A DNA stretch of 41,270 nt from Thermostichus sp. DG02_5_bins_236 (GTDB lineage Bacteria; Cyanobacteriota; Cyanobacteriia; Thermostichales; Thermostichaceae), in the NCBI GenBank assembly GCA_039794885.1, contig JAUQVI010000001.1:1-41270 (forward strand), in the 5' to 3' direction. Positions 6,542 to 27,574 of this stretch are shown here, piece by piece. The notes under the pieces are model-generated. The model was not told where the DNA came from and did not search any database. It saw only the letters and a list, made by a program, of their open reading frames with translations. The translations under genes were made by a program, and so were the position numbers. Numbering within the stretch: position 1 is the first letter of the stretch; the number at the start of each line of letters is the position of its first letter.

Positions 6542-7561
6542 GTGGTCAGGGTAGCAATCAACGGATTTGGTCGCATCGGTCGCAACTTCTTGCGCTGTTG
6601 GTTAGGTCGCTCTCAGTCCAACCTGGACATTGTGGCCATCAATGACACTTCAGACTCTCGCACTGCTGCCCACCTGCTCAAATACGATTCTATCTTGGGG
6701 CCGCTGCAAGGAGCGGAGGTTGAGCCCGCTGAGCGGGGATTGGTGGTGAATGGCAAACACATCAACACCGTTTCGGATCGCAACCCCAGCAACCTGCCTT
6801 GGAAAGATTGGAATGTGGATTTGGTCATCGAGGCTACGGGTGTTTTCGTCAACTATGAGGGCGCCTCCAAGCATATCGAAGCCGGAGCCAAAAAGGTGAT
6901 GATTACAGCTCCAGCCAAAGGCAGTGAAATTCCTACTTTTGTGTACGGGGTAAACCAAGATACTTATGATCCCGTACGGCACAACATCGTCAGTAACGCC
7001 AGCTGTACCACCAACTGCTTGACTCCGATCATCAAGGTTCTGCTGGAAAAATTTGGCATCGTCCGGGCCACCATGACCACCACCCACAGTTACACCGGCG
7101 ATCAGCGCATTTTGGACGGTGGACACCGGGATCTGCGCCGAGCGCGGGCGGCTGCTTTGAGCATGGTTCCCACTACCACAGGAGCAGCCAAGGCAGTGGC
7201 ACTGGTGATTCCAGAGCTCAAGGGCAAACTGAGCGGTGTGGCAGTACGGGTGCCCACCCCCAATGTTTCTTTGGTGGACTTGGTTGTACAAACCGAAAAG
7301 AGTGTCATTGCTGAAGAGGTGAATGACGCCCTGAAGGAAGCCTCTTTAACCAGCATGAAAGGGATCCTCGCCTATTCCGATATTCCGTTGGTGTCGATTG
7401 ATTATCGTGGCCATGACTGCTCGGCCATTGTGGATGCAGAAATGACCAATGTGCTGGGTGGCGATTTGGTCAAGGTGATGGCCTGGTACGACAATGAGTG
7501 GGGCTACTCCCAGCGGGTGGTGGATCTGGCGGAATACATGGCGGCTCACTGGGTGGAATAA
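6542..7561 (+). CDS. gap2: Glyceraldehyde-3-phosphate dehydrogenase, NAD(P)-dependent Calvin-cycle type
   Basis: [55 protein letters not shown] start after AGGAG. Confidence 0.95.
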
Positions 7562-8532
7562 GGTTGCTTCTGATGCCAACGCCAGGCGGTTTCAAGGATC
7601 TCGGTCAAATCGGTGTGGGCGGGTTTCCAGCCTAGATCCTGCATGATGGCCCTAGCATCCCCCACCAAGCGAGGGGGATCCCCAGGTCGGCGTGCCCCGA
7701 TTTGAACCGGGATCTGCTTTTGGGTCACAGCTTCAGCGGTGGCAATCACCTCTTTGACCGAAAAGCCTTGCCCATTCCCCAGGTTGTAGGCGGGTTGCAC
7801 AGGCTGATGGGTGGCCAAGGCTTCCACAGCCAAGACATGGGCTTGGGCCAGGTCGGTGACATGAATATAATCTCGAATACAGGTGCCGTCTGGCGTATCG
7901 TAGTCATCGCCAAAAAGGGTGATGTGAGACCGTCGGCCACTGGCTGCATCCAACACCAAGGGGATCAAATGGGTCTCCGGGTCGTGGGCTTCCCCGATTT
8001 CGCCCTCGGGATCCGCCCCGGCGGCATTGAAATAGCGTAGGCTAATGGACTGGATCCCGTGGGCAACACGAAAATCCCGCAGCATTTGTTCCACCATCAG
8101 CTTGCTCTGGCCGTAGGGGTTGATTGGATGTTGAGGATGGCTTTCTGGAATTGGGATCTGTTCGGGTACACCGTAAGAGGCACAGGTGCTGGAGAAGACA
8201 ATATGAGGGATGCCGTGATCCCGCATCGCCTCCAGCAAACTGAGGGATCCACCCACATTGTTGCGATAGTACTTGGCCGGATCTTGAACCGACTCGCCCA
8301 CGTAGGCATAGGCGGCAAAGTGAATGACACCATCCGGTTGATACTGTTGGATCACCTGATCCAGTCGCTCTCGGTCAGCAATATCTCCCTGTTCCAAAGG
8401 CCCCCAGCGAACGGCCCAAGGGTGACCATAAACCAAATTGTCGTAGGTGATCGGGGTATGGCCGCAGATAGCCAATGCTTTGCAGGTGTGGCTACCGATA
8501 TAACCGGCACCGCCTGTAACCAAGAAACGCAT
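7546..8532 (-). CDS. galE: UDP-glucose 4-epimerase
   Basis: [21 protein letters not shown] (YxxxK), [20 protein letters not shown]. Confidence 0.93.
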
Positions 8533-8596
8533 AGGCAAACCCTGAGTGGAGGATCCTACTTAAGAATAGAGACATAAAACACTTACCCCAAATGCC

Positions 8597-9691
8597 CTAG
8601 CGTGTGAGCAAGTCGATCACCCGCCAGAGATTACCAATACTGGTGAGGGGTCGCAAAAGAATATTGATCGGGTTGAGGGCGATATCCAAACTGTCGGACA
8701 TTTCTGCTGCCCCGGAGGGGCGAACCACAATTACATCCGAGTTGCGCAGGGGAGGGTTGCTTTCCTCGCTAATGCCCTGAGCAAAATCGACCCCAATTTG
8801 CCGGGCTTCCACACTGCCATCAGGATTAAGTCGAATCAGTTCCACCTGCTGCTGGGCTTTGGGGGTAAACCCTCCTGCGGCCAAAATGGCCACATTCAAA
8901 GAAGCATTCGGGCTGAGGCTGACTGAGCCAGGACGGATGACTTCACCGACAACATTGATGGTGATGGTGTCTGGAGCAAAATTGGCGGCACTGAGCTGGC
9001 TAATTTCAGCAGGGCTAACCTGGCTGGCGACCGGAACTCGAATGGTGTCCCCGTCGTAGATGATCGGATCCTCACTAGCTGCTCCGTTCTGTAGCAGCTC
9101 CCAGAGGTTGACTTGCAACGTTTGCTCGCCACCATTGCGGGTTTGTCGGCGGATCTCGATGTTGCGAATATCAGCTTTTTGGGTGATACCGCCCGCCAGT
9201 TGTAGCAGCTGGGTCAAGCGGGGCACATCTTCCCGTAGGGTGGTTGCCCCCACCTCCAGTACCTCAGAGGCACCGGTTGTGCCCTGCTTGGGAGAGACTG
9301 TGTAGCCCCCTGGTCGGTTTACTTCCCCCACCACATTGATGCGAAAACCGCGCGTATCCAGAAGGCTGACATTGACGGAAGGATATTTCAAATAAAAGGC
9401 AAATTTTTGTTCTAAGTCTCCAGCCGCCTGCTGCAGCGTCATTCCTTCCACCGGTACTATACCCACGAGGGGCAAGGCCAAGGTGCCATCCAATAACACC
9501 TGCTGATCCCCACTCAGGCTAGGCTCATTCAAAACTGTTACTCGTACCCGATCCCCAGGACCCAGAATATAGGCCCGCTCCTGCCAGGTCAGGCGACCAT
9601 CCAGGCTGAGTGGAGGTTCAACCGCTAGGGCCACCCCAGGAAAACAGCTTAAACCCAGAGCGCAGGAAAGAAGCAAACCATGCCGTTTCAT
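8597..9691 (-). CDS. wza: Polysaccharide export outer-membrane protein (Wza/OPX family with SLBB repeats)
   Basis: Signal peptide, Poly_export motif YILGPGD...DGTLALPLVG, repeated VVGEV.RPG and AGG.T..A motifs. ATG 9691 chosen. Confidence 0.88.
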   Translation of the reverse strand: MKRHGLLLSCALGLSCFPGVALAVEPPLSLDGRLTWQERAYILGPGDRVRVTVLNEPSLSGDQQVLLDGTLALPLVGIVPVEGMTLQQAAGDLEQKFAFYLKYPSVNVSLLDTRGFRINVVGEVNRPGGYTVSPKQGTTGASEVLEVGATTLREDVPRLTQLLQLAGGITQKADIRNIEIRRQTRNGGEQTLQVNLWELLQNGAASEDPIIYDGDTIRVPVASQVSPAEISQLSAANFAPDTITINVVGEVIRPGSVSLSPNASLNVAILAAGGFTPKAQQQVELIRLNPDGSVEARQIGVDFAQGISEESNPPLRNSDVIVVRPSGAAEMSDSLDIALNPINILLRPLTSIGNLWRVIDLLTR

Positions 9692-9782
9692 GTCAGGGAT
9701 CCTCTTCTCCACTTCAGACTGTTCAAATCCATTGCTTTGGAATCCTTAGCAGTAACCTGCTGCAAGGTTCTTCCCCTTCCCC

Positions 9783-11276
9783 TCAACGCCCCATGCCAAT
9801 ATAGGTAAACCCTGCTTGGCGCATCTGCTGCGGAGAGAAAAAGTTACGGCCATCCACGATTAAGGCTCGCCGCATCCCTGCCGCCAACCGTTGGAAGTCC
9901 ACATTGGTAAACTCTGGCCATTCCGTTACCAAAACCAAAGCATCGCAGCCTTGGGCCAAACTCAGGGCATCCTGCTCCAACTGCACCCCCGCCAGGGATC
10001 CCTGGTTGGATTGAATAATCGGGTCGTAAGCTTTGACCTTGGCTCCCAATTTCAGCAGTTGTTCGATCACCGTTAGGGAAGGTGCATCCCGCATGTCATC
10101 AGTATTGGGTTTGAAGGTGAGTCCCAATAGGCCAATGGTTTTCCCCTTCAGAACTTTCAATTCCTGCTGCAGCTTTTCTACGACCCGCAGCCGCTGCTGA
10201 TGATTGGTTTCGATCACCGCTGCCAAAATGGGAGTAGCACAGTGGTAATCTGTCCCCGTTCGCACCAAGGCTGATACATCCTTAGGAAAACAGCTCCCCC
10301 CCCAGCCAATACCGGCATTGAGAAACTTAGGGCCAATGCGAGAATCAAGGCCAATGCCTCTTGCTACCTCTGTAACATCGGCCCCCACCCGTTCACAAAT
10401 GGTGGCGACTTCGTTGATAAAGCTAATCTTGGTGGCCAAAAAGGCGTTGGCGGCATATTTCACCATTTCTGCAGAGGCCAAATCCGTCACCAAAAAGGGT
10501 ACCGGCAGTTGCGCAGCTGTGGTTGCCTCCGGATCCCAGCTGTGGTTGATGATCGGTTCGTACAGTTGCCGCATGATCGCGACGGCAGTGGCGCTATCCG
10601 AGCCGATGACAATACGGTCGGGATGAAAGGTATCCCAGATGGCGCTGCCTTCTCTTAAAAATTCCGGATTGCTGACCACATCAAAGTGGGGCAACACAGA
10701 CTCCAAATCAAAGCGCCTTGGATTGCCGTGGGATCCCACCAACACTGAACTGCCCACCAATAATTCCTCTTTAGCTGCCTGGGCGGCTCCATCCAGGATC
10801 ATCATGCGCACCCAATCCCCAGAGCCAATCGGCACTGTGGATTTATTGACAACGACTCGGTAACGAGAACGCGTTTGAGTACGGACTAAGCCCTGCCCAA
10901 TGCCACGGGCCACGGCTTCCACGTACTGCAAATTCGGATCCCCGGAGGGCAAAGCCGGAGTGCCAACCGTAATGAAGATAATGTCCCCAAATTCGATGCC
11001 GCGGTTGAGGTCAGTAGTGAATTGAATGGATCCTGAAGAGATGGATTCTACAGAGGTAGAAGTAGGTTCATGGCCTACAGATCTATCTACAGATCCATAA
11101 GTATGACGGCAAACAATCGATTCCAACCCTGGCTCATAAATGGGAATCTTTCCAGCTTGTAGAGCCGTAACTTTGTCACGGTTATTATCCACACAAATCA
11201 CCTGATGACCAATTTCAGCCAAGCAGGCCCCTGTTACCAAACCGACATAACCCGTGCCAATTACAGTTACATTCAT
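9783..11276 (-). CDS. ugd: UDP-glucose 6-dehydrogenase
   Basis: VIGTGYVG, NKSTVP, SNPEFLREG, GGSCFPKD (catalytic Cys), FKPNTDDMR, DGRN. ATG after AGGAAGG. Confidence 0.93.
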   Translation of the reverse strand: MNVTVIGTGYVGLVTGACLAEIGHQVICVDNNRDKVTALQAGKIPIYEPGLESIVCRHTYGSVDRSVGHEPTSTSVESISSGSIQFTTDLNRGIEFGDIIFITVGTPALPSGDPNLQYVEAVARGIGQGLVRTQTRSRYRVVVNKSTVPIGSGDWVRMMILDGAAQAAKEELLVGSSVLVGSHGNPRRFDLESVLPHFDVVSNPEFLREGSAIWDTFHPDRIVIGSDSATAVAIMRQLYEPIINHSWDPEATTAAQLPVPFLVTDLASAEMVKYAANAFLATKISFINEVATICERVGADVTEVARGIGLDSRIGPKFLNAGIGWGGSCFPKDVSALVRTGTDYHCATPILAAVIETNHQQRLRVVEKLQQELKVLKGKTIGLLGLTFKPNTDDMRDAPSLTVIEQLLKLGAKVKAYDPIIQSNQGSLAGVQLEQDALSLAQGCDALVLVTEWPEFTNVDFQRLAAGMRRALIVDGRNFFSPQQMRQAGFTYIGMGR

Positions 11277-11381
11277 AGTTGGGCTTACCTTCCTAATAAG
11301 CTTCGAACAAACTACAGCTTTTACCTGCTTCATACCTGTAAAGCCTAAGACGAAGCAGGATCTCGTCGGGTATTGTGATGA

Positions 11382-11657
11382 TCAAGCGGAGGGTCTCCAA
11401 GTCAAATTGGGTTCAGCAGGCCGAAAGACTTCAGAGGTAGCACAGTAGGTACCCAAAAAGCTCTCCCGCTTCACTCTAGAACTACTGCTGGAGCCATTTC
11501 CGCTCAAGACCCGGCACCGATAAATGTGAATCTCCCCTTGCCGCAAGAAAATACCATTGCAGAGCAGGTGTTCTAGAGAAGCTCCTGCCCCAACAGGTTT
11601 AGCCCGACCGGGATCTCCTTCAGAACTGGCAGGGTAGGCTATGTACAAATAACTCAT
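11382..11657 (-). CDS. Hypothetical 91-aa protein within the EPS operon
   Basis: ATG 11 nt after the hepC stop, preceded by GAGG. Co-oriented and fills most of the hepC-ugd gap. No recognised motif. Confidence 0.45.
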   Translation of the reverse strand: MSYLYIAYPASSEGDPGRAKPVGAGASLEHLLCNGIFLRQGEIHIYRCRVLSGNGSSSSSRVKRESFLGTYCATSEVFRPAEPNLTWRPSA

Positions 11658-11668: not shown

Positions 11669-12610
11669 TCAAAAAGCGCCGAAACCGGTTGCAACCTTGG
11701 GCAATGTTTGCAGGAGAATTGATAGATCCCTGAGCAAAGACCAATGGCCTAAATACTGCAAATCCACACGATTGACGATCTCCAAATCCAGCTGGGTTGA
11801 ACGTGCCGACACCTGCCAAGCTCCGGTGATGCCCGGTAAGGCGAGCATCCGATGTCGGCAGGAGGCAGGGATCCGAATCGCGTCGTAAATAGCCCAGGGA
11901 CGTGGCCCCACCAGACTCATTTGCCCTAACATCACATTGAACAGTTGGGGTAACTCATCGATGCTGTACTTGCGCATCCAACGCCCGATTGGGGTGATGC
12001 GAGGGTCATCCTGACGCTTGTGCAAACCATTCTGGTTGCCCATGACTTGATGATGCAATTTGTCTGCATTGGGCACCATAGTGCGGAACTTGATGATGCG
12101 AAATAATCTGCCCCCATGCCCAACCCGCCATTGTTTGAAGAAGAAAGGGCCAGGAGAAGAAATGAGCATTAGTAACATCACCCCGAGAAAAACCGGGATC
12201 AAGCACAACAAACCGAAAGCCGCCGCCAGACGATCCAACCAACGCTTCACTTGCCAGGGCAATGGATGCCGTTGCTCCGGCAACCAGAACAGAGACGGTG
12301 TGCTTAACTGCATGGATGCTGGCCGACCCGTTTGAGCTGCCAAATCGACCCAAAGATGGATGTCCTGCTGGGGCAGAGACGGATCCAGAAAAATTCGTCG
12401 GGCAGAACTGTACCGTAGCCAACTGAGAACAGCTGGGCGGGAATCCCAATCCGTCATGGAATCCCGTTGCCACTGGGGCGCAGGCTGAACAAATAGGGAT
12501 CCCTTGAACTGCTTCAGGATCCAGCAGTGAAAATGGAAGCTGAGAAACATCTCCTCTGGTAAAAGCGCTGGAGAGGGCCTTGCTGCCTGTAGAACCAACT
12601 CTGAAACCAT
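11669..12610 (-). CDS. hepC: Priming sugar transferase (undecaprenyl-phosphate glycosylphosphotransferase), HepC type
   Basis: KRWLD, KFRTM, DDPRITPIGRWMRKYSIDELPQL, MSLVGPRP, PGITG, plus a cyanobacterial HepC-like N-terminal extension. Confidence 0.85.
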   Translation of the reverse strand: MVSELVLQAARPSPALLPEEMFLSFHFHCWILKQFKGSLFVQPAPQWQRDSMTDWDSRPAVLSWLRYSSARRIFLDPSLPQQDIHLWVDLAAQTGRPASMQLSTPSLFWLPEQRHPLPWQVKRWLDRLAAAFGLLCLIPVFLGVMLLMLISSPGPFFFKQWRVGHGGRLFRIIKFRTMVPNADKLHHQVMGNQNGLHKRQDDPRITPIGRWMRKYSIDELPQLFNVMLGQMSLVGPRPWAIYDAIRIPASCRHRMLALPGITGAWQVSARSTQLDLEIVNRVDLQYLGHWSLLRDLSILLQTLPKVATGFGAF

Positions 12611-12660: not shown

Positions 12661-12975
12661 TCAAAGACAAGCTTCGGTAACAACCTGAATTAACCCTTCC
12701 GAAGCAAGCGATTGGACTAGATTCAGCACCTCCTGTTCGCACACCTGCGGATCCACCTCATAGTCCTCTAGCAAGCAGTTCAAGAGATGGCCGATTCGAA
12801 TTGGGCTCTTCATAAGAGTCCAAATGTAAAAACCAATGGGGTTGAAGCCGTAGTAAACCCCAGAATCCAAATCCAGTAAGACAGCTCCATCTTCAAGAGA
12901 GGAGGAAACCTGATTGCCGGCACACACAACAGTGCTGTCAACCGTGATGGCAGGTGCAGTTTTCAACACGCTCAT
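12661..12975 (-). CDS. PqqD-family / RiPP recognition element protein (lasso B1-like)
   Basis: 104 aa with the pattern L.DGAVLLDLDSGVYYGFNPIG..IW.L...L...YEVD...CEQEV..L...L...GLI. RBS GGAG 7 nt before ATG. Confidence 0.88.
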   Translation of the reverse strand: MSVLKTAPAITVDSTVVCAGNQVSSSLEDGAVLLDLDSGVYYGFNPIGFYIWTLMKSPIRIGHLLNCLLEDYEVDPQVCEQEVLNLVQSLASEGLIQVVTEACL

Positions 12976-13390
12976 GGTTAAACTCCACAGTGTCAAATCC
13001 GCTCAGATCACCGCAAGGAACGTGGCAAATCAAGCAACAGAGCCACCGCACACCCGCAAAAGACCTCAGAGGCAGAGCGGAATACTCTCTGAGTTTGCCT
13101 AGTTCTGAGGGAAAGTGCATCTTTCTTTATATTTTCTTTAGATTTACTCATGATCTGCTCACAGGAAGCATTTTCTCGGTATCCATCCACTCTTTTCGGA
13201 GAGCAGCCCCTTTGCAATTCGGTTAAATATAAATAAATTCTTAAGAAAGATAGATCTCGATGATGGAGCATGTCTTACTTGCAATGTCTGCCTCCACAAG
13301 CTCTGTTGTCGAACGGTGGGTAGCACCTAGGAGTTCAGGCTGGGTTGAAAGCCTTGGCCCTAGTAGGTTCTGGTAGAGTTGGTTTTCCGG
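12976..13390. promoter_or_regulatory. Divergent promoter region of the EPS locus
   Basis: Non-coding gap between oppositely oriented operons with AT-rich tracts (13119-13150, 13223-13256). TTTCTTTA occurs twice at 11-bp spacing. Confidence 0.65.
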
Positions 13391-14470
13391 ATGATGTCCA
13401 CCCATTTGCAAATTCTGCCGCCCTCTGTTCCGACGAAAGCGTTGGGGCAGGTGTTTGCTGTGGACTTGTTAGGGCGTCAACTGCACTGCATGACAGCTCC
13501 CGCTTTGGTGGAAGAAATCTGGCAAGCCTGTCGCCACAACCAGCGTCGGGTGATTGCCCACTGCAATGTGCACGGGTTCAATCTTTCAATGATCTGCCCC
13601 CGGTTTTATCGCTTCTTGCAGTCAGCAGATATTGTCCATTGCGACGGTATTGGCATTCTCAAGGCGATTGGCTACTTGGGCAGGCTGAAGCTGCCGGTGG
13701 AGTATCGAGTCTCCTACACCATTCTCATGCCACTCCTGCTGGAGCGTTGCCAACGGGAAGGACTGTCTCTATACCTGCTGGGGGGGAACCCGACTCACTT
13801 GGAGAGAGCCCTGAGCAACTTGCGGTTGCTTTATCCTCATCTTCAGGTAACCGGCCACCACGGCTACTTTGCTGCAGAAGATCCCGAAGAGAATGCAGCC
13901 ATTGTGGAATCGATCCGCGCCAGCGGTTGCCAGATCTTGATCGTCGGCATGGGTATGCCCAGGCAAGAGTACTGGATTGAACACCATCGGGATCACCTGA
14001 CTGTGAATGCCATTCTTTCCGGTGGAGCTGTGGTTGACCGCTTGGCGGGAGTCGTACCCGATTGTCCGAAGTGGCTATCCGATGTCGGTTTGGAATGGCT
14101 GTATCGGTTGTCTCGCGAACCGCAGCGATTATCCGTTCGCTACCTGCTGGGAAACCCCACGTTTGTCTTGACGTTGGCTTTGGCTCGTCTGCAAGGATTT
14201 CGCGTGTCTTGGGTTGAGCAGACGGATCCCGCAGAACTGACTCTGCCTGTCTGGCAAGTGCAGCCTCCTGAAGAGGCCAAAATCCGCTTGCTAGGCCAGG
14301 TGCTGACCGAATCGGGAATCCTTAACCCCACCCAGCTCGAGGAAGCTCTGGTGGAGCACCGGTTGACGGGCAAACCTTTTCGAGAGGTCATTTCACGCCA
14401 TGGCTGGGCACGTGAAGAAGCTCTGGAAGTAGTGATCGAGAAGTTGCTGCGGACGGAGATATCCAGGTGA
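13391..14470 (+). CDS. WecB/TagA/CpsF (GT26) glycosyltransferase with a C-terminal MshEN-like domain
   Basis: CDGIG, GHHGYF, VGMGMPRQE, LEWLYRLSREPQRL..RY. C-terminal RLLGQVLTESGILNPTQLEEALVEH. Confidence 0.9.
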   Translation: MMSTHLQILPPSVPTKALGQVFAVDLLGRQLHCMTAPALVEEIWQACRHNQRRVIAHCNVHGFNLSMICPRFYRFLQSADIVHCDGIGILKAIGYLGRLKLPVEYRVSYTILMPLLLERCQREGLSLYLLGGNPTHLERALSNLRLLYPHLQVTGHHGYFAAEDPEENAAIVESIRASGCQILIVGMGMPRQEYWIEHHRDHLTVNAILSGGAVVDRLAGVVPDCPKWLSDVGLEWLYRLSREPQRLSVRYLLGNPTFVLTLALARLQGFRVSWVEQTDPAELTLPVWQVQPPEEAKIRLLGQVLTESGILNPTQLEEALVEHRLTGKPFREVISRHGWAREEALEVVIEKLLRTEISR

Positions 14471-14516
14471 TTGGGGCTGAGGGTTTGAGGGGTTCAGCAG
14501 AACTGTTGGGGGTGCG

Positions 14517-15611
14517 ATGAAGATCTTGCATGCTCTTTACCAATCCAAAACTGGCACAGGCACCCTTCAGGTGGTACTGGACTTGCAGACCTCAGCGCAG
14601 GCAGCAGGACACACAGTATCCATCCTGGCTAGAGATGCACAGGTGTTTGCACAAGCCGGGGCAGAGCGGTTTTTCACTGGCAACAAGTTTTGGGATTGGT
14701 TGCGGTTTGGGCAGCGAATAGCCCGAGATTCTCCTGATCTGGTGCATGTGCATGATCGCTATTGCTCCCTGCTGTTGCGAGGGATCCCCAATCGCCCCCC
14801 CAGTGTGCAAACCAACCATATTGCCTACACCACTCGTCGCCGCTTCACTCTTTTGGCAGATGTTGTGGTTGGGTGCTCCGAGGCGATGGATCGTCATCAT
14901 GCTGAGTTCTTTAACCTGCCCTCTCACCGTCGAGCCGTTATCCAGAATGGCATCACAGCCCGTTTGCCTCGGCCAGAGCAGGTGGCCAGGTTAGGGCAGT
15001 CTCTGCCGGGAGAGAAAAAAAAGCTTTGCCTGACGGTTGCCCGACTGGAACCGGAAAAAGGACACCGCTATTTGCTGGAGGCTATTGCCGGATTGGATCC
15101 GGCTCTGCGCCAAGAATGGGGGTTTGTCATGGCGGGTTCCGGCTCTCTGGAAAACTCTCTCCAAAAGCAGGCGCAGCAGCTGGGCCTGGACACCGACGTG
15201 TTTTGGGTCGGCCACACGCCTCAGGTACCGGAGTGGCTGGCTTTGGCTGAGGTGTTCGTCTTGCCTTCTCTCCTAGAAGGGTTGCCTCTTTCTTTGCTGG
15301 AAGCGATGGCTGCTGGGCTGGCTTGTTTGGCGACGGATGTGGGTGGTACTGCTGAGGCCTTGCATTCCTATCGAAATGGGTTGTTGATCCCGCCAGAGGA
15401 TGTACCTGCCCTAGGGGAAGGGTTGACCCAACTGCTGGGCAATGCTCAACTGCGCCGACAGCTTGGGCAAGCTGCTCGTGCTGATTACGAGCGCCATTGG
15501 CGGTTTGAGCGCACCTGGCAACAGTACGAAACTCTCTATCAGCACTTGTACCGCGCCGCTTTGCACGCCCCTACTGTCTCACCTAACTCTCTTACCCCGC
15601 GACTGCCATGA
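14517..15611 (+). CDS. Glycosyltransferase family 4
   Basis: VARLEPEKG, FVLPSLLEGLPLSLLEAMAAG (EX7E), TDVGG. Confidence 0.9.
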   Translation: MKILHALYQSKTGTGTLQVVLDLQTSAQAAGHTVSILARDAQVFAQAGAERFFTGNKFWDWLRFGQRIARDSPDLVHVHDRYCSLLLRGIPNRPPSVQTNHIAYTTRRRFTLLADVVVGCSEAMDRHHAEFFNLPSHRRAVIQNGITARLPRPEQVARLGQSLPGEKKKLCLTVARLEPEKGHRYLLEAIAGLDPALRQEWGFVMAGSGSLENSLQKQAQQLGLDTDVFWVGHTPQVPEWLALAEVFVLPSLLEGLPLSLLEAMAAGLACLATDVGGTAEALHSYRNGLLIPPEDVPALGEGLTQLLGNAQLRRQLGQAARADYERHWRFERTWQQYETLYQHLYRAALHAPTVSPNSLTPRLP

Positions 15612-17767
15612 CTTTTGATTCTGCCTACGCTATGCCTGTGCGTCGTCCCCTGCCGGAACGGGTGATACGTGCTTTCTTACCCGAATCTTGGTTGTTTCTG
15701 CTGGTTCTGATTGCCGTGTTGGGGCCGGCGGTGTACTGGATTCGGCGCATCCCTCCCATTTACCAGGCTCATTCGGAGTTGTTGATCGAGTCCCCTCGCA
15801 GTGTGGAGCGCTTGGTCTCAGGGGGAAATAATTCGGGGGTGAGTAACCTGGATACGGTTGGCGATCGAGTCAACCCGATCAACAACCAAATCGCCCTGAT
15901 CCGTTCCACTCCCATTTTTGAAAAGGCTCTCGAGCAGGCGGGACTGGAGCGACAAGAGGTTCCCCAAGGGGCACTTGGAGTGAAGCTGCTAGGGGGGACT
16001 GATCTAGTGGAAATCAGCTATTCCTCCACAGATCCAGAATTGCCACCGAAGGTTGTCGCTGCCATCACTGAGGTCTATATACAAGAGAACCTACGACTGA
16101 ACCGAGAGAGAGCCTCTCAGGCGCGGCGGGCCATAGAACGCCAATTACCAGAGCTACAGGAGGATCTGCGCAAAGCCCAAGATGCGTTAGAAGCCTTCCA
16201 ACAGGAAAATCGCTTCTTGGGAGGTGGCAGTGAGACGGCGGATGTGACTCGTACTCTGAATGAGATGCACCAGCGGGTGCAAGCGGCTCAGGTGGAGCTT
16301 TCTTCAACAGTACAGCGGATCGAAAGCCTGCAGGGTCAGCTGCCAGAGGATCCCGATGCTGCATTACGGGTTGTCGGCCTGAGTCGGGATCCCAACTTTC
16401 AAGCCCTGCGCGCGGATCTGGTCAAAGCAGAGACGGAATTGGCTCAGTTGCAATCCCGCTACACCGATCAAAATCCCCAGGTGCTCAGTGCTCTGGAAAA
16501 GAAAGAGCGCTTAGCTGGTCTCCTTCGAGACTACTCCATACGGGCTTTGGGGGAGCAAGCCGGATTCGATCTGGCCATCCCGGATCCCGTTCAGCAGGGC
16601 TTGGTGGAGAAATGGTTTGAGCTAGGGGTAGAACGTGCCGCTCAGAATGCACGCCTAGGTCAACTAAGCAGTCAGTTTGCGGAGATTCAAAGCCGCTACA
16701 ACGAGCTGCCTCAACTCATGAAAGAGCATAGTCAGTTGCAACTGGCTTTGGAGCGCGCCCGCCAGACCTACTTGATCTTCAGTGAAAACCTTGCCTCTAG
16801 CCGTAGTCTCGAGCAACAAAGTTTAGGCAATGTGCGGGTGATCGAGCCACCCAGCCAGCGAAGCGTTCCGATTGGTCCCAATCGCAAACCTCTTTATGCT
16901 GTGGCACTGGTTTTGGGCACTCTCTCAGGGCTAGGAGCCGTGTGGATTAAGGTTGCCACCAACAACAAGCTGCGTACTCTACCGGAGTTGCGAGATATTC
17001 TGCCGTTGCCTGTCCTCAGTGCGGTGCCCTGGGGGGGAGTTGAGAAGCTGGCGGATCCCAGTTTTGGAAAGGAGAACCCTCTGCTGGATGGCTATCAAAC
17101 TTTGCAAGCTCACATGCGCATGCTGCCGCGAGAGGTGCACACTATTGCCATTGCCAGTTGGTCTCGTCCCGAAGGGAGTGGGTTGGTGGCCGAAAACCTA
17201 GCCCTTCTAGAAGCGCAAATTCGTCGCCGAGTTCTGTTGGTACGGGCCAACACCAATGAGGTGGGATCCCCTCATTTGAGCCGTTTTGATGCCACTACTC
17301 TGGAGGAGCGAGATTTAAAAGATCTGGCAGAAGAGGAACGGCAATGGCGGGAGTGGCTACAAACTCAAACCACAGGGAACCCCAACGGTTCTAAGACCAG
17401 TGCCGAATTACGCGGATTCGATGTGTTGACTTATCAAGTGGGGCTCTCCCTTTCTGCCTACAAAAAATGGTCAATGCTTTTGGCTCGGTTGCGCAAGCGC
17501 TATGACTTGGTGATTTTGGATTGTCCACCTGTTTCCCAAGGCTCAGCGGCGACGTTACTGGCTTCTTTGTGTGATGGGGTGCTTTGGGTTGCAGCTCCCC
17601 AGCAATTAGGACGAAGGGGAGCAGCCGCAGCAGCAGAGACCTTACGCACTTGGGATACTCGCCTACTGGGTCAAGTTGTGGTGGGAACAGGTGCTCATGC
17701 TGTTGTCAATGGACATCCTCGATTGGGCAAACCCAAAGCCCAAAGCCTATTGCCTGAGGGGGTTTAG
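15608..17767 (+). CDS. wzc: Polysaccharide co-polymerase (Wzc/GumC) with a degenerate tyrosine-kinase domain
   Basis: N-terminal TM then PIYQA, long coiled coil with YTDQNPQV, Pro-rich segment and second TM, cytoplasmic CapB-like domain with YDLVILDCPP. ATGA overlap with the upstream GT. Confidence 0.88.
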   Translation: MTFDSAYAMPVRRPLPERVIRAFLPESWLFLLVLIAVLGPAVYWIRRIPPIYQAHSELLIESPRSVERLVSGGNNSGVSNLDTVGDRVNPINNQIALIRSTPIFEKALEQAGLERQEVPQGALGVKLLGGTDLVEISYSSTDPELPPKVVAAITEVYIQENLRLNRERASQARRAIERQLPELQEDLRKAQDALEAFQQENRFLGGGSETADVTRTLNEMHQRVQAAQVELSSTVQRIESLQGQLPEDPDAALRVVGLSRDPNFQALRADLVKAETELAQLQSRYTDQNPQVLSALEKKERLAGLLRDYSIRALGEQAGFDLAIPDPVQQGLVEKWFELGVERAAQNARLGQLSSQFAEIQSRYNELPQLMKEHSQLQLALERARQTYLIFSENLASSRSLEQQSLGNVRVIEPPSQRSVPIGPNRKPLYAVALVLGTLSGLGAVWIKVATNNKLRTLPELRDILPLPVLSAVPWGGVEKLADPSFGKENPLLDGYQTLQAHMRMLPREVHTIAIASWSRPEGSGLVAENLALLEAQIRRRVLLVRANTNEVGSPHLSRFDATTLEERDLKDLAEEERQWREWLQTQTTGNPNGSKTSAELRGFDVLTYQVGLSLSAYKKWSMLLARLRKRYDLVILDCPPVSQGSAATLLASLCDGVLWVAAPQQLGRRGAAAAAETLRTWDTRLLGQVVVGTGAHAVVNGHPRLGKPKAQSLLPEGV

Positions 17768-17772
17768 GAGCA

Positions 17773-19125
17773 ATGTTAACGTCTCCCCTTCCCCAATCTT
17801 TGAACGCTGAGGCGGAGTGGCTTCCTGAGTTGTTCAGCCAGGGAATGCCTGATCAACACTCTGAAAGAGTGATCTTTTGGACGATTGCTTTGGTGCCGCT
17901 TTGGTGGATTCTGGGTATTCAAATTATTGTTTACCCACTGGTGGGGGGATATTTGCTGTTGCGCAGTTGGTATCGCCCACAGCCAGTTCCATTGTTGGTG
18001 GGATGGCACCTTTGGTGTAGCTATATCATCGCTTGGCTGGTTTCTCTGCTGATTAATTTGGCTTTAGGGGTGGCAGAGGTGGGTCGTAGCCTCAATGCTT
18101 TGGGAGCGATCTTGGGTGTTTGGGTGCTAACAGTGGCGGTTTGGTACGCCGTGCGCCGGTTGCGGGTTCGCCTGCAAGTGGTGGTCAGGGCGGCCTGCAT
18201 TCTTGGTCTATGCCAGTTAATTGCCGTCCTGATTGGGGAAGGATACCTGCGCCTAACGGGATCCCTTTTGGAAACCCGCAGCCTTGTAACTATACTGTGG
18301 CCTTCGATACCGGCTCGAGTTTTCTTTGAAGCCCAGCTTTATGGTCTGGATCGAATCGCCTGGGACGTGGATCCCGTTTTAGTTCCGCGTCTGAAGTCGT
18401 TTTACTATTGGTCTCCCCTAGCTGGGACGATGAGCTTGATTCTGAGTCAGATTGCATTAACGGAGGAGAATCGATTTTGGCGGTGGGTCGGACTCATTGG
18501 TGCAGTAGTAACACTTCGATTCTCGGCAGCTCGTATGGCCCAATTGGCCTTTGGGGCAGCAACTCTGATCAGTCTCTGGTTTGGCAGTCGCTGGGGACGT
18601 CGCATCATGAATTGGTTGGCCATTCCCATCGTTGCAGCTTCTCCTTTTTTGATTGGCGGCTTAACTTGGTATCTCTTCAACTATCGGCGGGACTCCTTCA
18701 CGCTACGTCAGGAAATGTATCAAGAGGCTTTTGAAGCTTTTCTAGAATCTCCCTTTTTTGGCTATGGAGCTCAAGGCCATTCGAGAATTACCCACCATCC
18801 ACTGGGATCCCATTCCCAAGTTATTTCTTCTCTCTACCAAACTGGGGCAATTGGGTCTACATTGCTCGTTTTGTCTTGGATAGCCATAGCTATAGCATTG
18901 GTGAATTGGGTATTGAAACACCCTAATTTAGCACCCTGCTTAGGGGCTTGGGTTGGGCTTACATTTGTCATGCTCACTGAGGAGTATCACGCTGCCAGTG
19001 TTACTGCCTTTACACTATCAGCTTGGTTGGGCTGTGCGTGGAATTGGGGTGAGCAGGTTATTTGTCGTCAGTGGTTACCGCCATGGTGGCAAGAGCCTCC
19101 TTTCCCATGGCAACAGCGAGCGTAA
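17773..19125 (+). CDS. wzy: O-antigen ligase/Wzy-like polysaccharide polymerase
   Basis: About 10-11 hydrophobic segments, periplasmic loop R...Y...PFFGYG...GSHS, located between wzc and wzx. Confidence 0.75.
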   Translation: MLTSPLPQSLNAEAEWLPELFSQGMPDQHSERVIFWTIALVPLWWILGIQIIVYPLVGGYLLLRSWYRPQPVPLLVGWHLWCSYIIAWLVSLLINLALGVAEVGRSLNALGAILGVWVLTVAVWYAVRRLRVRLQVVVRAACILGLCQLIAVLIGEGYLRLTGSLLETRSLVTILWPSIPARVFFEAQLYGLDRIAWDVDPVLVPRLKSFYYWSPLAGTMSLILSQIALTEENRFWRWVGLIGAVVTLRFSAARMAQLAFGAATLISLWFGSRWGRRIMNWLAIPIVAASPFLIGGLTWYLFNYRRDSFTLRQEMYQEAFEAFLESPFFGYGAQGHSRITHHPLGSHSQVISSLYQTGAIGSTLLVLSWIAIAIALVNWVLKHPNLAPCLGAWVGLTFVMLTEEYHAASVTAFTLSAWLGCAWNWGEQVICRQWLPPWWQEPPFPWQQRA

Positions 19126-19169
19126 ATGATACTTTTCTAGACTTAATCCAGAACTCAACGGGTGCTATA

Positions 19170-20138
19170 ATGCTAAACCGTTTTCTTCGCAAATCTAGTT
19201 TCTTGAATATTAAAGGAACAAGCATTGCAGTTGCCCTAATTACTGCTTCTATTATTTTTGCTTGCTCTGGTTCAATCGTAGGAATTTCAAATAAATTATT
19301 TGTGAGAGTGGATACGTTTTATGGAGTGGAAGTAGGAAATGATGCCAACGTGTCTAGAATAATTTCTGTCTTACAGGATCTGAAGATTGGTACAGTTCGT
19401 CTTTGGGCTAATGTAAATTGGAATGAGCGCCGTGAACCTAGCAGTGGTGTTTTTAATCGAGCCCGACAGCTGAAACAAGCTGGATTTAGGGTCATCGTTC
19501 TGTTTCAGAATCGTGAGATTCCCTCTTCTACAACTGAGGTTAAAGCCTATTTTGATTGGGTACAAACCCTGCCAGGCATTAGAGAGTCTATCGATGTTTG
19601 GGAGATTCTTAATGAGTTAGAGAGTCGCAAGTATTGGCTGGGAACAGCCGATCAATATGTACAGTTGGTGCTCAAGCCAGCCTGGGACTCATTACATACC
19701 CAGAGGGAGAAAGTTCTCGGCGGCTCTTTCTCCGCTTGGCAGGAAACAGGTTGGAATACCAATGTTACACAAGAGTACCTAGCTGCAGGATATCTCAACT
19801 ACGTAGACTATGCCGGCAGCCATCCCTATACCTTTACAGTCGATCAGATGAGGCGGCACTTGAATGAAGTAAGGCAATTATATGGCGCTAAGCCAATCAT
19901 CATTACTGAATGGAACTTTTTGCCGCAGACTCGAGCTGATCACGGTAGAGATTATCAGAAGTGGCGACAGATGCTAGACGAGGTACTTCCTTATGTAAAG
20001 AGCCAAGCTTTGACCGTCTGTTATTTTCGCTTACACCGGCTGCAGAGTGAGGGTGGCTGGCCCGGCTTAATTGATTACGAAAACCACTCCATAACCCCCT
20101 TCTATGAAATGTATCGCTCTTGGACTAGATCAACGTAG
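19170..20138 (+). CDS. Clan GH-A glycoside hydrolase, probable lipoprotein
   Basis: WEILNE (acid/base), HPY, IIITEWN (nucleophile). Hydrophobic N-terminus ending IFAC (lipobox-like). Start may be 19107. Confidence 0.75.
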   Translation: MLNRFLRKSSFLNIKGTSIAVALITASIIFACSGSIVGISNKLFVRVDTFYGVEVGNDANVSRIISVLQDLKIGTVRLWANVNWNERREPSSGVFNRARQLKQAGFRVIVLFQNREIPSSTTEVKAYFDWVQTLPGIRESIDVWEILNELESRKYWLGTADQYVQLVLKPAWDSLHTQREKVLGGSFSAWQETGWNTNVTQEYLAAGYLNYVDYAGSHPYTFTVDQMRRHLNEVRQLYGAKPIIITEWNFLPQTRADHGRDYQKWRQMLDEVLPYVKSQALTVCYFRLHRLQSEGGWPGLIDYENHSITPFYEMYRSWTRST

Positions 20139-20174
20139 CTGTTTTGTTTGTTCAACCCATAGCCCAAACCTTCC

Positions 20175-21134
20175 ATGCATACCAATCCAACAGTTAGTGT
20201 CATTGTTCCTGCCTACAATGTACAGAAGTACATCTCCGAGGCTCTTCAGTCTCTTCTTTATCAAACCTGGCAGAATTTTGAGGTACTGGTAGTCGATGAC
20301 GGTTCCACAGATAGCACTGCAGAGGTTGTGAAACATTGGTGTCAAAGGGATCCCCGCTTCCATCTTTTATCAAAACCAAATGGTGGTCTTGCTTCTGCTC
20401 GCAATTGGGGGATTCGACATACTCAAGGTGAATTTATCGCTCTACTGGATGCTGATGATCGCTATCTTCCCCAGAAGTTGGCCAGCCATATTGAGATACT
20501 ACAACGCCATTCAGGCATTGACGTTATCTATAGTGCCTCAAAGATCATTCGGGATGATGGTTCTCCGACTTGGCTGTCACTGAGTGGCCGTCCCATGCAT
20601 TCAGATCCTCTACTGGCTATGCTCTGTAAGAACTTTATTGGTCATGGTTCAAATGCAATATTTCGACGAGCTTTGTTTGACCAAGTTGGAGGATTTGATG
20701 AAAGCTTACAAAGCTGTGAGGATCTTGATTTTTGGCTAAAAGTAGCAGAGCAGAGACCTCATTGCTTTTACCGATATCGACAAGCTTTGTGTGAATATCG
20801 TGTTCGGCCAAGTGGGTTATCTTTTGATGTCAAAAAGATGCAGGAATGTGGTGAACAAGTCTTGCAAGCTACTTTTATTCGTTCCCCGAAGAAGGTGCAG
20901 TCAATAATGCCTACAGCTTATGCTTTTTTCTATCGTCTACTAGCTCGCTTAGCTTTGACAGCTCAAGAACCTGAGTTGGCCAAAGATTATATTGTCAAAG
21001 CTCTTGCCAGTGATCGGTCGATTTTCTTGCAGGATCCCCGTTCATTGCTAACCTTGCTTGCTGTTCATCTACAGTTCATCTCACGTCCTTTAATTCACCT
21101 TTCGCTAAACCCTCGCTCTTCTCAAATCTCCTGA
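20175..21134 (+). CDS. Glycosyltransferase family 2
   Basis: VSVIVPAYN, VDDGSTD, NGGLASARN, LDADD, GGFDE, ED. Confidence 0.92.
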   Translation: MHTNPTVSVIVPAYNVQKYISEALQSLLYQTWQNFEVLVVDDGSTDSTAEVVKHWCQRDPRFHLLSKPNGGLASARNWGIRHTQGEFIALLDADDRYLPQKLASHIEILQRHSGIDVIYSASKIIRDDGSPTWLSLSGRPMHSDPLLAMLCKNFIGHGSNAIFRRALFDQVGGFDESLQSCEDLDFWLKVAEQRPHCFYRYRQALCEYRVRPSGLSFDVKKMQECGEQVLQATFIRSPKKVQSIMPTAYAFFYRLLARLALTAQEPELAKDYIVKALASDRSIFLQDPRSLLTLLAVHLQFISRPLIHLSLNPRSSQIS

Positions 21135-21185
21135 ACTTCTCCAAGTGAATGATCATCATTAAAAGTTGTAATCTCAGTAAGCTAT

Positions 21186-22685
21186 ATGACAAGTCTTGAA
21201 GCATCACCCGCAAACAACTTACGTTCTCGCCTTTTTAGCGGGCTGCGCTGGAAGTTGGGATCCCAAGCAACACAGCAGATATTAAATTTAGGTAGCGCAG
21301 TGGTGATGGCTCGTTTACTTTCACCTGCGGATTTCGGTTTGCTGTCAATGGCCAGTGTGTTTACAGGAATTGTCTATGTAATCTTGGATTTGGGTCTGGG
21401 AGCAGCACTGGTTCAACGCACAAATATTGAGCCACGTCATGTCTCTAGCATTTTTTGGATAAATGTAGGTGTAGGGTTTGGTCTTTCTCTCATCGGTCTT
21501 GTGCTCTCCTGGCCAATTGCCGTCTTCTATCAAACTCCAGCAGTACAATCGGTTGTTGGAGCTCTGGCTTGTTGTTTTTTTATTGCTGCTCTAGGGAGTA
21601 CACAAGAAGCTCTTCTTATTAGAAAAATGCACTTTCGAGCTTTAGAATTTCGTCGTATGTTAAGTCATCTAGTTGGTATTATTGCAGGCTTGATGATGGC
21701 ATATATGGGTTGGGGAGTTTGGAGCTTAGTTGGACGTATTGTTATAGCTAGTTTACTGGGCACAGTATTACTTTGGTACGTCTCAAGTTGGCGACCCAAT
21801 TGGCAGTTTTGTTGGGCAGACGTGAAACAAATGAGCGGCTTTAGCAATGATGTCCTTGGGGGTAACTTATTGGGGTATGTGGGGCGTAATGCTGATAATC
21901 TTTTAATAGGTAGATTTCTTGGTTCAGTTGAGCTTGGCTTTTACAGCATGGCCTACAATCTAATGTCAGCTCCGCTAGATCGAATTGCTCAAGTGTTGGC
22001 AGGAGTCTTGTTTCCAGCTCTCTCTCAACAGCAGAAGGATTTGAATAAAGTAAAGCAGAGCTGGTTTAGGGCTAGTCAACTAATTACAGCAGTCGTTATT
22101 CCACTTGTTATGGGTCTCATTCTTTTAGCACCTGAATTAATACGTGTGTTTTATGGTGAAAAATGGTTGCCTGCAGCCCCTATTTTACAGATTCTAGCAG
22201 TGCGAGCTTTAGTAGTTGGATTAAAGGTTCTTGATGGAACAGTTTTGTTGGCAATTGGTCAGACCCGACTACGACTCAACTTAATTGGCGTTTCAGTAGG
22301 AGTAGCTATTTTATCTTTCTTGATTGGGCTCCCATTTGGTATTCAGGGTGTGGCTCTGAGTTTCACTATCTTCACTTCTCTCGTATCGTTAATTGGTCTG
22401 TGCCTAACTCTGAATTGCGTCAAATCAAACTTTGCTGCCTACTTTAGCAATTTAAGTGGGATTTTATTTGCTACAGCTGGAATGACAGTTGGTGTCTTCA
22501 TGCTTAAAGTAGTATGGTTAGATTCTGCAGGCAGTCTGCTATTAGCCTCAATTCTGTTAGGAGGGAGTCTTTACTTGGGATCGCTACAGATAATAGATCC
22601 AAATGTACTTCAGGAAGGCATTCGCATCTTGCCTGACCACTGGAGGAATAAGTTTTTACGGTTTAAAAATCATTCTAATTTATAA
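21186..22685 (+). CDS. wzx: Wzx/MOP-family polysaccharide flippase
   Basis: ARLLSPADFG, DLGLGAALVQ, DNLLIGRFLG..ELGFYSMAY, YGEKW; about 12-14 TM segments. Confidence 0.9.
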   Translation: MTSLEASPANNLRSRLFSGLRWKLGSQATQQILNLGSAVVMARLLSPADFGLLSMASVFTGIVYVILDLGLGAALVQRTNIEPRHVSSIFWINVGVGFGLSLIGLVLSWPIAVFYQTPAVQSVVGALACCFFIAALGSTQEALLIRKMHFRALEFRRMLSHLVGIIAGLMMAYMGWGVWSLVGRIVIASLLGTVLLWYVSSWRPNWQFCWADVKQMSGFSNDVLGGNLLGYVGRNADNLLIGRFLGSVELGFYSMAYNLMSAPLDRIAQVLAGVLFPALSQQQKDLNKVKQSWFRASQLITAVVIPLVMGLILLAPELIRVFYGEKWLPAAPILQILAVRALVVGLKVLDGTVLLAIGQTRLRLNLIGVSVGVAILSFLIGLPFGIQGVALSFTIFTSLVSLIGLCLTLNCVKSNFAAYFSNLSGILFATAGMTVGVFMLKVVWLDSAGSLLLASILLGGSLYLGSLQIIDPNVLQEGIRILPDHWRNKFLRFKNHSNL

Positions 22686-22727
22686 GATTCTCACTCATTC
22701 CCCATCTTCTTAGAAGGAGATTCTAGT

Positions 22728-23657: not shown

Positions 23658-23708
23658 GAAAACTCTCCAAATGACTACAGAACCATCTAAACTCTCTGAG
23701 TAGAATCT

Positions 23709-26254: not shown

Positions 26255-26313
26255 ATGGGTTTTTGAGTTAGTCAGAAATGCTTGAGTAAGTTCATGCATG
26301 GTAAGGAGTGGGT

Positions 26314-27537: not shown

Positions 27538-27574
27538 CTGCTAGAGGTGCATAGTCTCGTCTAGGAGAAGTAGA

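What the first reader, a model, noticed from the sequence alone, without database searches (positions are those of the whole stretch)
12661..12975. Orphan RiPP-recognition element (PqqD/lasso B1-like) heading an exopolysaccharide operon
Seen: a 104-aa PqqD-type ORF with a good RBS is the first gene of the minus-strand run RRE-hepC-ORF-ugd-wza-galE. The window has no lasso cyclase (asparagine-synthetase-like), B2 peptidase, radical SAM enzyme, pqq gene or YxxPxL-type precursor. Known: RREs bind leader peptides and deliver them to modifying enzymes. Inference: here the RRE may be a peptide-binding adaptor for glycan synthesis, for example docking on the HepC N-terminal extension or delivering a peptide for glycosylation. 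It could instead act in trans or be a relic of a lost lasso-like cluster.
Basis: partly seen in the sequence, partly recalled or inferred. Interest (0 to 1): 0.7.

Follow-up and report, generated by a model that had tools for sequence, protein, structure and literature searches.

The report
Lasso-peptide chaperone inside exopolysaccharide operon
This small gene at the head of a slime-polysaccharide gene run is not an orphan: it encodes the peptide-gripping part that a lasso-peptide gene cluster elsewhere in the same cyanobacterial genome lacks, so it likely serves that cluster from afar, and a rare DNA motif upstream of both sites suggests peptide and polysaccharide are likely switched on together.

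Summary
In detail: window 12975-12661 (-) is a 104-aa PqqD/RRE gene heading RRE-hepC-ORF91-ugd-wza-galE. It is not an orphan. It is the genome's only PF05402 hit, and contig C54 carries a paeninodin-type lasso cluster (B2, cyclase, two precursors, HprK-like kinase, ABC transporter, nucleotidyltransferase) that lacks only B1. Two near-complete relatives have the same split, 1.17 Mb apart on one contig in G004. The gene is under purifying selection (dN/dS 0.09-0.17), nests among lasso B1s in a tree, and has Glu at the leader-specificity position, as most B1s with Trp leaders do; the C54 precursors are WxxP. A 22-bp motif occurs at only three sites in the genome: upstream of this gene, of the divergent wecG run and of lasso B2. 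In the two relatives it also precedes a third glycan locus. Best reading: a lasso B1 working in trans, co-regulated with EPS. Direct RRE-hepC adjacency is confined to this three-genome clade, and nothing supports docking on HepC. Lasso clusters near capsule genes are already described in Bacilli; the split and the shared motif were not found in my searches. Binding, transcription and any EPS role are untested.

The parts
12661..12975 (-). Lasso peptide B1 (discrete RRE, PqqD family), 104 aa; Asn45 and Glu82 sit at the two leader-specificity positions
12983..12986 (-). GGAG ribosome-binding-site core, 7 nt before the ATG
   Evidence: sequence
13119..13151 (-). Shared AT-rich motif with an 11-bp period, ending 143 nt upstream of the B1 start; candidate regulator site
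13219..13251 (+). Second copy of the motif, facing wecG; its last 31 bases differ at 2 positions from the copy upstream of lasso B2 (C54:5652-5684)
11669..12610 (-). HepC-type priming sugar transferase; likely start 50 nt after the B1 stop (the longest ORF starts at 12742)
11382..11657 (-). 91-aa ORF, conserved and coding-like in G004 and G008; no family and no lasso leader motif
9783..11333 (-). UDP-glucose dehydrogenase (second copy; other ugd matches on C126 and C148)
8597..9712 (-). Wza-type polysaccharide export protein
7546..8538 (-). GalE; also present in relatives that lack the island, directly after cobQ in G001 and G007
13379..30894 (+). Divergent EPS gene run: wecG, GT4, wzc, Wzy_C-family protein, glycosyl hydrolase-like, GT2s, wzx, GT4, MBOAT, FkbM methyltransferase

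Best explanation
The gene encodes a lasso-type RRE (B1), the one core part missing from the genome's lasso cluster on contig C54, which it likely serves in trans while likely being transcribed with the EPS genes under a shared upstream motif. Shown: family, fold match, single copy, conservation, the B1-less cluster and the motif. Inferred from known lasso chemistry: B1 would grip the WxxPx(F/L) leader of the two precursors (C54:8491-8664 and 8767-8961) and present them to B2, which would cut after Thr-Gln; the cyclase would join the new N-terminus to Asp8 or Asp9. The kinase and nucleotidyltransferase would add phosphate and hexose as for pseudomycoidin, though these precursors lack the C-terminal Ser, so the acceptor is unknown. 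Two tail Cys could form a disulfide, and the ABC transporter would export the product. The split likely arose by rearrangement of a mixed lasso-EPS island.
For: (1) One PF05402 hit each in G000, G004 and G008 (99% complete). (2) C54 has B2 (NF033537, 87.9 bits, cut-off 33), a lasso cyclase (NF033535, 788 bits, cut-off 525), two precursors, kinase, ABC and PF14907, and no RRE; the catalytic motifs are intact. (3) B1, B2 and over-cut-off HepC occur in the same 3 of 12 genus genomes. (4) 80 of 88 cyanobacterial B2 hits have a PqqD within 12 kb, and 72 of 81 close B1 relatives have B2 or C in the fetched locus. (5) The RRE nests in a 97/87-supported clade of 36 rows that are mostly B1s of B1-B2-C clusters, and the C54 cyclase nests with cyclases of the same loci. 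(6) At the position shown in PMC13381572 to set Tyr/Trp leader choice, B1s with Tyr leaders have Asp in 21 of 21, and B1s with Trp leaders have Glu in 4 of 6, Cys in 1 and Asp in 1; this RRE has Glu82. (7) dN/dS is 0.09-0.17 for the RRE and 0.08-0.42 for the lasso genes. (8) The motif has 3 sites in 3.27 Mb at up to 2 mismatches. A matrix built from the EPS-locus sites alone scores the B2 site 41.1 bits and the next site 21.4, and further sites precede a third glycan locus. (9) Complex prediction of RRE with precursor A1 gave weak support only: 0.37 against a best control of 0.00, contacts agreeing at least 87%, partner pLDDT 50. The mark was reached by 116 of 157 solved and 2 of 215 mismatched pairs, but at 0.60 or under by only 18 of the 157 and by both mismatches, and like complexes are solved, so the pass may be from memory.
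Against: No binding, cleavage, transcript or product was measured. Pseudomycoidin, from a similar cluster, is made in vivo without B1 and B2 (PMC6993621 passages), so C54 may not need this B1. The three carrier genomes are close kin (core genes mostly 80-95% identical), so co-occurrence and motif conservation count as about one event. The six Trp-leader clusters form one cyclase clade, so the 4 of 6 is not four independent cases. The RRE scores below the NF033536 cut-off, sits on a fairly long branch (1.47 against a median of 0.38) in a poorly resolved tree, and has Val where PbaB1 has the Trp-contacting Glu75. I first saw the motif by eye in these same regions, and one unrelated 17-base match from the same intergenic region occurs at C53:10306. 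The motif could be a duplicated promoter relic rather than a regulator site. G000 is 89.5% complete.
Confidence: 0.8

Rival explanations
1. The RRE has been repurposed as a direct adaptor for glycan synthesis, docking on the HepC N-terminal region or the 91-aa ORF, with no lasso role.
For: It is the first gene of the hepC run, 50 nt before hepC, in all 3 carrier genomes. HepC carries one FLDPSL stretch resembling an aromatic-xxPxL motif. Some cyanobacterial RREs sit among glycosyltransferases with a kinase but no B2 or cyclase in the 20-kb window (L036, L037).
Against: HepC is in 135 of 401 genomes and PqqD in 112. Of the 42 genomes with both, only these 3 have them within 1 kb; the next nearest are 8, 18 and 21 kb, all inside lasso loci (one genome's PqqD place was not listed). 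The HepC N-terminal region is covered by the ordinary family model. Neither HepC nor the 91-aa ORF has a [YW]xxPx[LFIVM] motif. The leader pocket matches the Trp leaders on C54.
Confidence: 0.06
2. The gene is a stranded passenger: left at the EPS promoter when the island split, and dispensable because the C54 cluster works without it.
For: B1 and B2 were dispensable in vivo for pseudomycoidin, and a cyanobacterial cluster without B proteins is noted there (PMC6993621 passages). Lasso genes are often beside EPS genes, so stranding needs no function. The branch is long.
Against: dN/dS is 0.09-0.17 at dS up to 0.53, like hepC (0.07-0.10) and the lasso ABC transporter (0.08-0.09). The frame, RBS and pocket residues are intact in 3 of 3 genomes. 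The same paper reports that in vitro cleavage needed both B1 and B2.
Confidence: 0.1
3. The RRE serves a different RiPP pathway elsewhere in the genome, for example an unassembled radical SAM or linear phosphopeptide cluster.
For: G000 is 89.5% complete in 349 contigs. I did not search for radical SAM/SPASM, YcaO or SipW-type clusters.
Against: It scores far lower against the ScmD, GeoRSP and WgkC PqqD models than against the lasso model. A genome-wide precursor scan gave 4 hits, of which only the C54 one looks like a lasso precursor. The tree and the pocket point to lasso B1.
Confidence: 0.04

Closest known systems
Paeninodin-type lasso clusters (pade, psm/pseudomycoidin, pba) with discrete B1 and B2, HprK-like kinase, nucleotidyltransferase and ABC transporter
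   Same: Same gene set, WxxP leaders and intact catalytic motifs. The best PDB sequence match, 9x90_B (E 1.6e-12), carries all ten PbaB1 residues named in the PMC13381572 passages at one constant offset, so I infer it is PbaB1; the code is not in the paper's main text. That paper also reports such clusters within capsular polysaccharide loci and up-regulated together with an EPS gene.
   Different: B1 lies at a separate locus (1.17 Mb away in G004) at the head of the EPS run. It has Asn45 and Glu82 where PbaB1 has Gly42 and Gln79. The precursors end in a Cys pair, not a C-terminal Ser.
Cyanobacterial lasso clusters (NCBIfam NF033535 cyclase, NF033528 lasso_cyano precursor), commonly ordered B1-B2-C-A-kinase-ABC-NT
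   Same: C54 keeps the order from B2 onward. Precursor Pro8, Gly14, Thr20 and the ring Asp are invariant across 38 aligned precursors. Sugar-transferase-B1, wza-B1 and wecG-B1 neighbours occur in intact clusters (L073, L044, L092).
   Different: 73 of 88 B2 hits have a PqqD within 1 kb; this clade accounts for 3 of the 8 that have none within 12 kb. Both precursors score under the NF033528 cut-off (23.4 and 17 bits against 33).
TbiB1 (PDB 5v1u, 5v1v) and TfuB1 (6jx3) lasso RREs
   Same: Top fold matches, rmsd 1.6-2.2 A over about 80 residues; sequence E 1.5e-9 for TbiB1.
   Different: 24-28% identity in the fold alignments; TbiB1 has Asp where this protein has Glu82.
Linear polyphosphorylated peptide (LPP) clusters of Bacillota (PMC13381572)
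   Same: Discrete RRE, HprK-like kinase, NTP transferase and ABC transporter in polysaccharide-rich loci.
   Different: LPP clusters lack a cyclase, use a SipW-like peptidase and have YxxP leaders read by an Asp; here a cyclase and B2 are present and the leaders are WxxP.
XssS/XssR/XssQ-controlled synechan EPS regulon of Synechocystis PCC 6803 (PMC8205485)
   Same: Several EPS promoters share a short repeated upstream motif.
   Different: The XssQ consensus is AAGTTxxAC, unlike the AAGAAA-based 11-bp-period motif here; no regulator was identified here.

Membership tests
Discrete RRE / PqqD family (PF05402) | Profile match above the curated cut-off | tested here: met
   59 bits against 23.4
Discrete RRE / PqqD family (PF05402) | Three-strand sheet followed by a three-helix bundle | tested here: met
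   predicted model E22-27, E30-35, E41-44, H46-54, H61-71, H76-92; TbiB1 top match
Lasso peptide B1 | Groups with B1s of B2/C-containing clusters | tested here: met
   97/87 clade of 36 rows; 72 of 81 close relatives have B2 or C nearby
Lasso peptide B1 | NCBIfam lasso_PqqD_Bac score above the cut-off | tested here: not met
   68.3 bits against 80; best of the five PqqD models hit
Lasso peptide B1 | Cognate precursor with [Y/W]xxPx[L/V/I/F/A] leader, Thr at -2 and Asp/Glu at core position 7-9 in the genome | tested here: met
   two precursors on C54 with Asp8 and Asp9; position rule recalled from lasso literature, leader motif from PMC13381572
Lasso peptide B1 | B2 peptidase and macrolactam cyclase available | tested here: met
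   NF033537 and NF033535 above cut-off; Cys94/His129 and SGGLDSS motifs
Lasso peptide B1 | Encoded within the lasso cluster (usual, not mechanistically required) | tested here: not met
   different contigs in G000 and G008; 1,165,551 bp apart in G004
Lasso peptide B1 | Leader-binding pocket residues | tested here: met
   Ile47, Leu68, Asp71, Tyr72, Glu73 and Val74 equal PbaB1 I44, L65, D68, Y69, E70 and V71; Val78 differs from E75
Lasso peptide B1 | Binds the leader and enables B2 cleavage | not testable with these tools
   prediction only, weak: 0.37 against best control 0.00
Paeninodin-type lasso system | HprK-like kinase, nucleotidyltransferase and ABC transporter in the cluster | tested here: met
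   kinase by weak HprK-related hits plus Walker A and Asp-Asp motifs; PF14907 174 bits
Paeninodin-type lasso system | C-terminal Ser as the phosphate acceptor | tested here: not met
   the precursors end in Cys-Ile and Cys-Thr-Tyr; Ser acceptor from PMC6993621
PQQ biosynthesis PqqD | pqqA-E genes adjacent | tested here: not met
   no pqq family among the 36 other window ORFs scanned; pqq genes were not searched genome-wide
LPP system | SipW-like peptidase, no cyclase, YxxP leader | tested here: not met
   cyclase present and WxxP leaders; SipW-like gene not searched

The most novel reading that the evidence does not exclude
The lasso peptide is a working part of the exopolysaccharide: its phospho-hexose tag is extended by, or anchors, the EPS glycan, and placing B1 at the head of the hepC run under one regulator makes peptide maturation conditional on EPS synthesis. 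This would give paeninodin-type lasso peptides, whose role is unknown, a structural job in the cyanobacterial matrix, with the shared motif marking an undescribed EPS-lasso regulon.
Probability: 0.2. Interest if true: 0.8.

Novelty: new variant of a known kind. Interest (0 to 1): 0.5.

Why it matters
PMC13381572 states that the biological role of paeninodin-type lasso peptides is unknown and that a biofilm role, suggested by their closeness to capsule loci, is untested. Here an apparently core lasso gene sits inside an EPS gene run and the lasso operon shares a genome-rare upstream motif with three glycan gene runs, which gives a direct genetic test of that link. It also shows that cluster-based mining could call C54 incomplete and this gene an orphan. 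The protein itself is an ordinary lasso B1.

Tried and rejected
RNA evidence: no RNA holder was listed for window 9700-14500, which says nothing about expression. Sigma-70 and terminator scans of 7400-13500 were at chance level, 3 promoters against 4.9 expected and 5 terminators against 7.1. The metagenome scan with the RRE gave 1 distant locus of 274 candidates, so no joined version of the island was found. The 91-aa ORF has no Pfam hit, no usable Atlas hit and no homologue among the ORFs of the other fetched loci; it was rejected as a lasso precursor for lack of a leader motif. The motif matrix found no strong site in fetched loci outside the clade (best 14.0 bits), and the motif does not match the XssQ consensus. 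cobQ-galE adjacency as proof of one ancestral island holds in only 2 of 5 relatives, is 25 kb co-oriented in 1 and is absent in 2, so it is suggestive only. Enrichment of core EPS genes near lasso clusters was not significant with one locus per genus (median 7 of 25 against 4 of 40, p 0.09). The careful cyclase tree did not finish; FastTree was used. No RRE-HepC complex was predicted: the single job went to RRE plus precursor. Earlier scan notes returned nothing. Paper searches for a split lasso cluster or this locus listed nothing describing it, judged from listings and abstract starts; most subscription papers are not searched, and supplementary genome-mining tables, which I did not open, may list these loci.

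Full report
Observation. Window 12975-12661 (-) encodes 104 aa with a GGAG 7 nt upstream. It is a PqqD-family protein (PF05402, 59 bits, cut-off 23.4), closest to the lasso B1 model NF033536 but under its cut-off (68.3 against 80). PDB sequence and fold searches both put lasso B1 proteins first. Downstream on the same strand lie HepC (50 nt after the stop), a 91-aa ORF, ugd, wza and galE; a 17.5-kb Wzx/Wzc-type EPS run starts divergently at wecG. Co-transcription is inferred from spacing only.

The rest of the pathway is elsewhere. The genome has one PF05402 hit, one B2, one strong asparagine-synthetase-like gene plus two weak partial hits and one PF14907. The strong hits are all on contig C54, in the order B2 (5905-6387), cyclase (6384-8396), precursor A1 (8491-8664), precursor A2 (8767-8961), HprK-like kinase, ABC transporter, nucleotidyltransferase. 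B2 is 160 aa with no room for a fused RRE, and the three forward frames of 5250-6050 hold no RRE. Catalytic motifs of B2, cyclase and kinase are intact. The precursors have WxxPxF and WxxPxL leaders, Thr at -2, Asp at core position 8 or 9, and two tail Cys. G004 and G008 (99% complete) have the same two loci and one PqqD each; in G004 they are 1,165,551 bp apart on one contig. B1, B2 and over-cut-off HepC are found in the same 3 of 12 genus genomes; these three are close kin and count as about one event.

Is this B1 the cognate one? In 401 genomes of the class, 112 had PqqD, 80 had B2 and 135 had HepC. I entered 149 PqqD places (1 under cut-off dropped, 2 not listed by the tool) and 88 of 93 B2 places (5 under cut-off dropped): 73 B2s have a PqqD within 1 kb, 7 within 12 kb and 8 none, 3 of them this clade. 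Among 81 loci of close B1 relatives across phyla, 72 hold B2 or a cyclase, and 43 of the 44 loci of at least 15 kb do. In a 61-row tree the RRE falls in a 97/87 clade of 36 rows, mostly B1s of intact clusters, on a long branch and with little inner resolution. The C54 cyclase falls among cyclases of the same loci, also on a long branch. PMC13381572 (passages and section 10) shows that LppB D70 / PbaB1 Q79 helps decide Tyr against Trp leaders. That position is Glu82 here (mapped through 9x90_B, which I infer to be PbaB1). Of the 33 other aligned B1s, 29 had a precursor found: Tyr leaders go with Asp in 21 of 21, Trp leaders with Glu in 4, Cys in 1 and Asp in 1, and Phe leaders with Ser in 1 and Asp in 1. 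The Trp cases are one cyclase clade, whereas the C54 cyclase sits in a 97-supported clade whose other members have Tyr or Phe leaders, so the Trp/Glu pair here may be a second origin. Complex prediction of B1 with A1 gave weak support: 0.37 against a best control of 0.00, contacts agreeing at least 87%, partner pLDDT 50; the mark was reached by 116 of 157 solved and 2 of 215 mismatched pairs, at 0.60 or under by 18 of 157 and both mismatches, and similar complexes are solved. dN/dS is 0.09-0.17 for B1, 0.07-0.10 for hepC, 0.14-0.17 for the cyclase and 0.16-0.29 for A1, so neither locus looks like a decaying relic.

The EPS link. Direct B1-hepC adjacency is not general: among 42 genomes with both families only these 3 have them within 1 kb (I entered the 45 HepC places of those genomes only). 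The looser link is real. Of 65 windows fetched around PqqD or B2 hits, 39 held B1, B2 and cyclase; 17 of those 39 had a glycosyltransferase against 6 of 40 arbitrary control windows from the same genomes (p 0.007), and 11 against 4 had hepC, wza, wzc, wzx or wecG (p 0.048), using this window's proteins as queries. With one locus per genus the first holds (median 12 of 25, p 0.009) and the second does not (7 of 25, p 0.09). Core EPS genes lie in 23 of the 81 cross-phylum loci, with no matched control. PMC13381572 already reports this closeness in Bacilli and calls the role unknown.

A shared upstream motif. The intergenic region 12976-13390 holds two copies of an AT-rich motif with an 11-bp period, one facing B1 and one facing wecG; a third lies 220 nt upstream of B2. 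The 22-bp pattern has exactly these 3 sites in the genome at up to 2 mismatches. The two regions share 17 exact bases, a length reached by 0 of 1000 locally shuffled pairs (longest 16); one other 17-base match of that region occurs at C53, so such a match alone is not proof. A matrix from the six EPS-locus sites of three genomes scores the B2 site 41.1 bits, C18:21770 21.4 bits and the next 14.6. With a slightly wider pattern, G004 and G008 each have the three sites exactly, two more sites and one stray; G001, G006 and G009 have 0, 1 and 1 strays; reversed-pattern controls give 0, 2, 0, 1 and 0. The two extra sites precede DUF6817-pyruvyltransferase-GT4 and GT4-GT2-Wzm-Wzt genes, a locus found in 2 of 12 genus genomes by its GT4 and in pieces in G000 (C18 end, C76). 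I saw the motif by eye before testing it; the C18-type sites were not used to define it. It is not the XssQ consensus (PMC8205485 passages). That it binds a regulator is inferred.

Origin. cobQ flanks the lasso locus and galE ends the B1 run. In G001 and G007, which lack both loci, cobQ is directly followed by galE; in G006 they are 25 kb apart and co-oriented; in G005 and G009 they are not neighbours. This fits one lasso-EPS island inserted between them and later split, but it is only suggestive.

Mechanism and rivals. Most likely (0.8) B1 works in trans for C54 by standard lasso chemistry, and the product is made together with EPS. Phosphate and hexose additions are by analogy with pseudomycoidin (PMC6993621 passages), where the acceptor is a C-terminal Ser that these precursors lack. 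The same paper shows B1 and B2 can be dispensable in vivo, which keeps a passenger reading alive (0.1). A direct HepC adaptor (0.06) has only gene order for it. Lasso peptide glycosylation by a cluster glycosyltransferase is known (PMC11912497 passages), so extension of the peptide by EPS enzymes is possible but untested.

Verdict. A real and ordinary lasso B1 in an unusual place: a new variant of a known kind. The split and the shared motif were not found in eight paper searches (listings and abstract starts only), and I opened no supplements. Interest 0.5, mainly because it makes the lasso-EPS question testable.

Noticed in passing
L039:9046-10814 and L040:4322-10072 (G371): A mirror-image split: a lone B2 follows wecG, while a B1-C-A-kinase-ABC cluster 1.5 Mb away lacks B2. 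Its precursor also has a tail Cys pair. The genome has another cluster with its own B2 (L041).
   Followed up: partly
L034-L038 (G198); G046 likewise: Lasso-type genes scattered over five loci: B2 alone, RRE with cyclase twice, and RRE with HprK-like kinase among GT2 or GT4 arrays with no cyclase in the window. Possibly cyanobacterial RRE-kinase-glycosyltransferase systems of another kind.
   Followed up: partly
L233:3449-11080 (G004), L234 (G008); G000 C18 end and C76: A third clade-restricted glycan locus (DUF6817, pyruvyltransferase, two GT4, GT2, Wzm, Wzt) carrying two copies of the shared motif.
   Followed up: partly
window 11382-11657 (-): 91-aa ORF with third-position-biased differences in three genomes (24 of 35, 13 of 18, 18 of 24), so likely a real protein, but with no family or homologue found.
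   Followed up: partly
window 13379-14470 (+) and L033:3247-5307 (-): WecG ends in an MshE-related c-di-GMP-binding motif (NF053729, 34.3 bits, cut-off 38), and a GAF-PAS-EAL gene is divergent from lasso B2: both loci may be tied to c-di-GMP.
   Followed up: no
L031:6810-9943 (G004): B2 and the EAL gene of G004 are far more diverged from G000 (53% and 63%; B2 dS 2.4) than neighbouring genes (78-91%), suggesting replacement by recombination.
   Followed up: no
window 19126-30894: The distal EPS genes have 41% GC against 54% for wecG-wzy and the genome, suggesting a separately acquired module that includes an MBOAT acyltransferase and a 409-aa ORF with no family.
   Followed up: no
L093:641-2936 (G223) and G178:C74:572: Lasso clusters with kinase and ABC genes in pieces, or a B2 with an internal stop; decay or sequencing error.
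   Followed up: no
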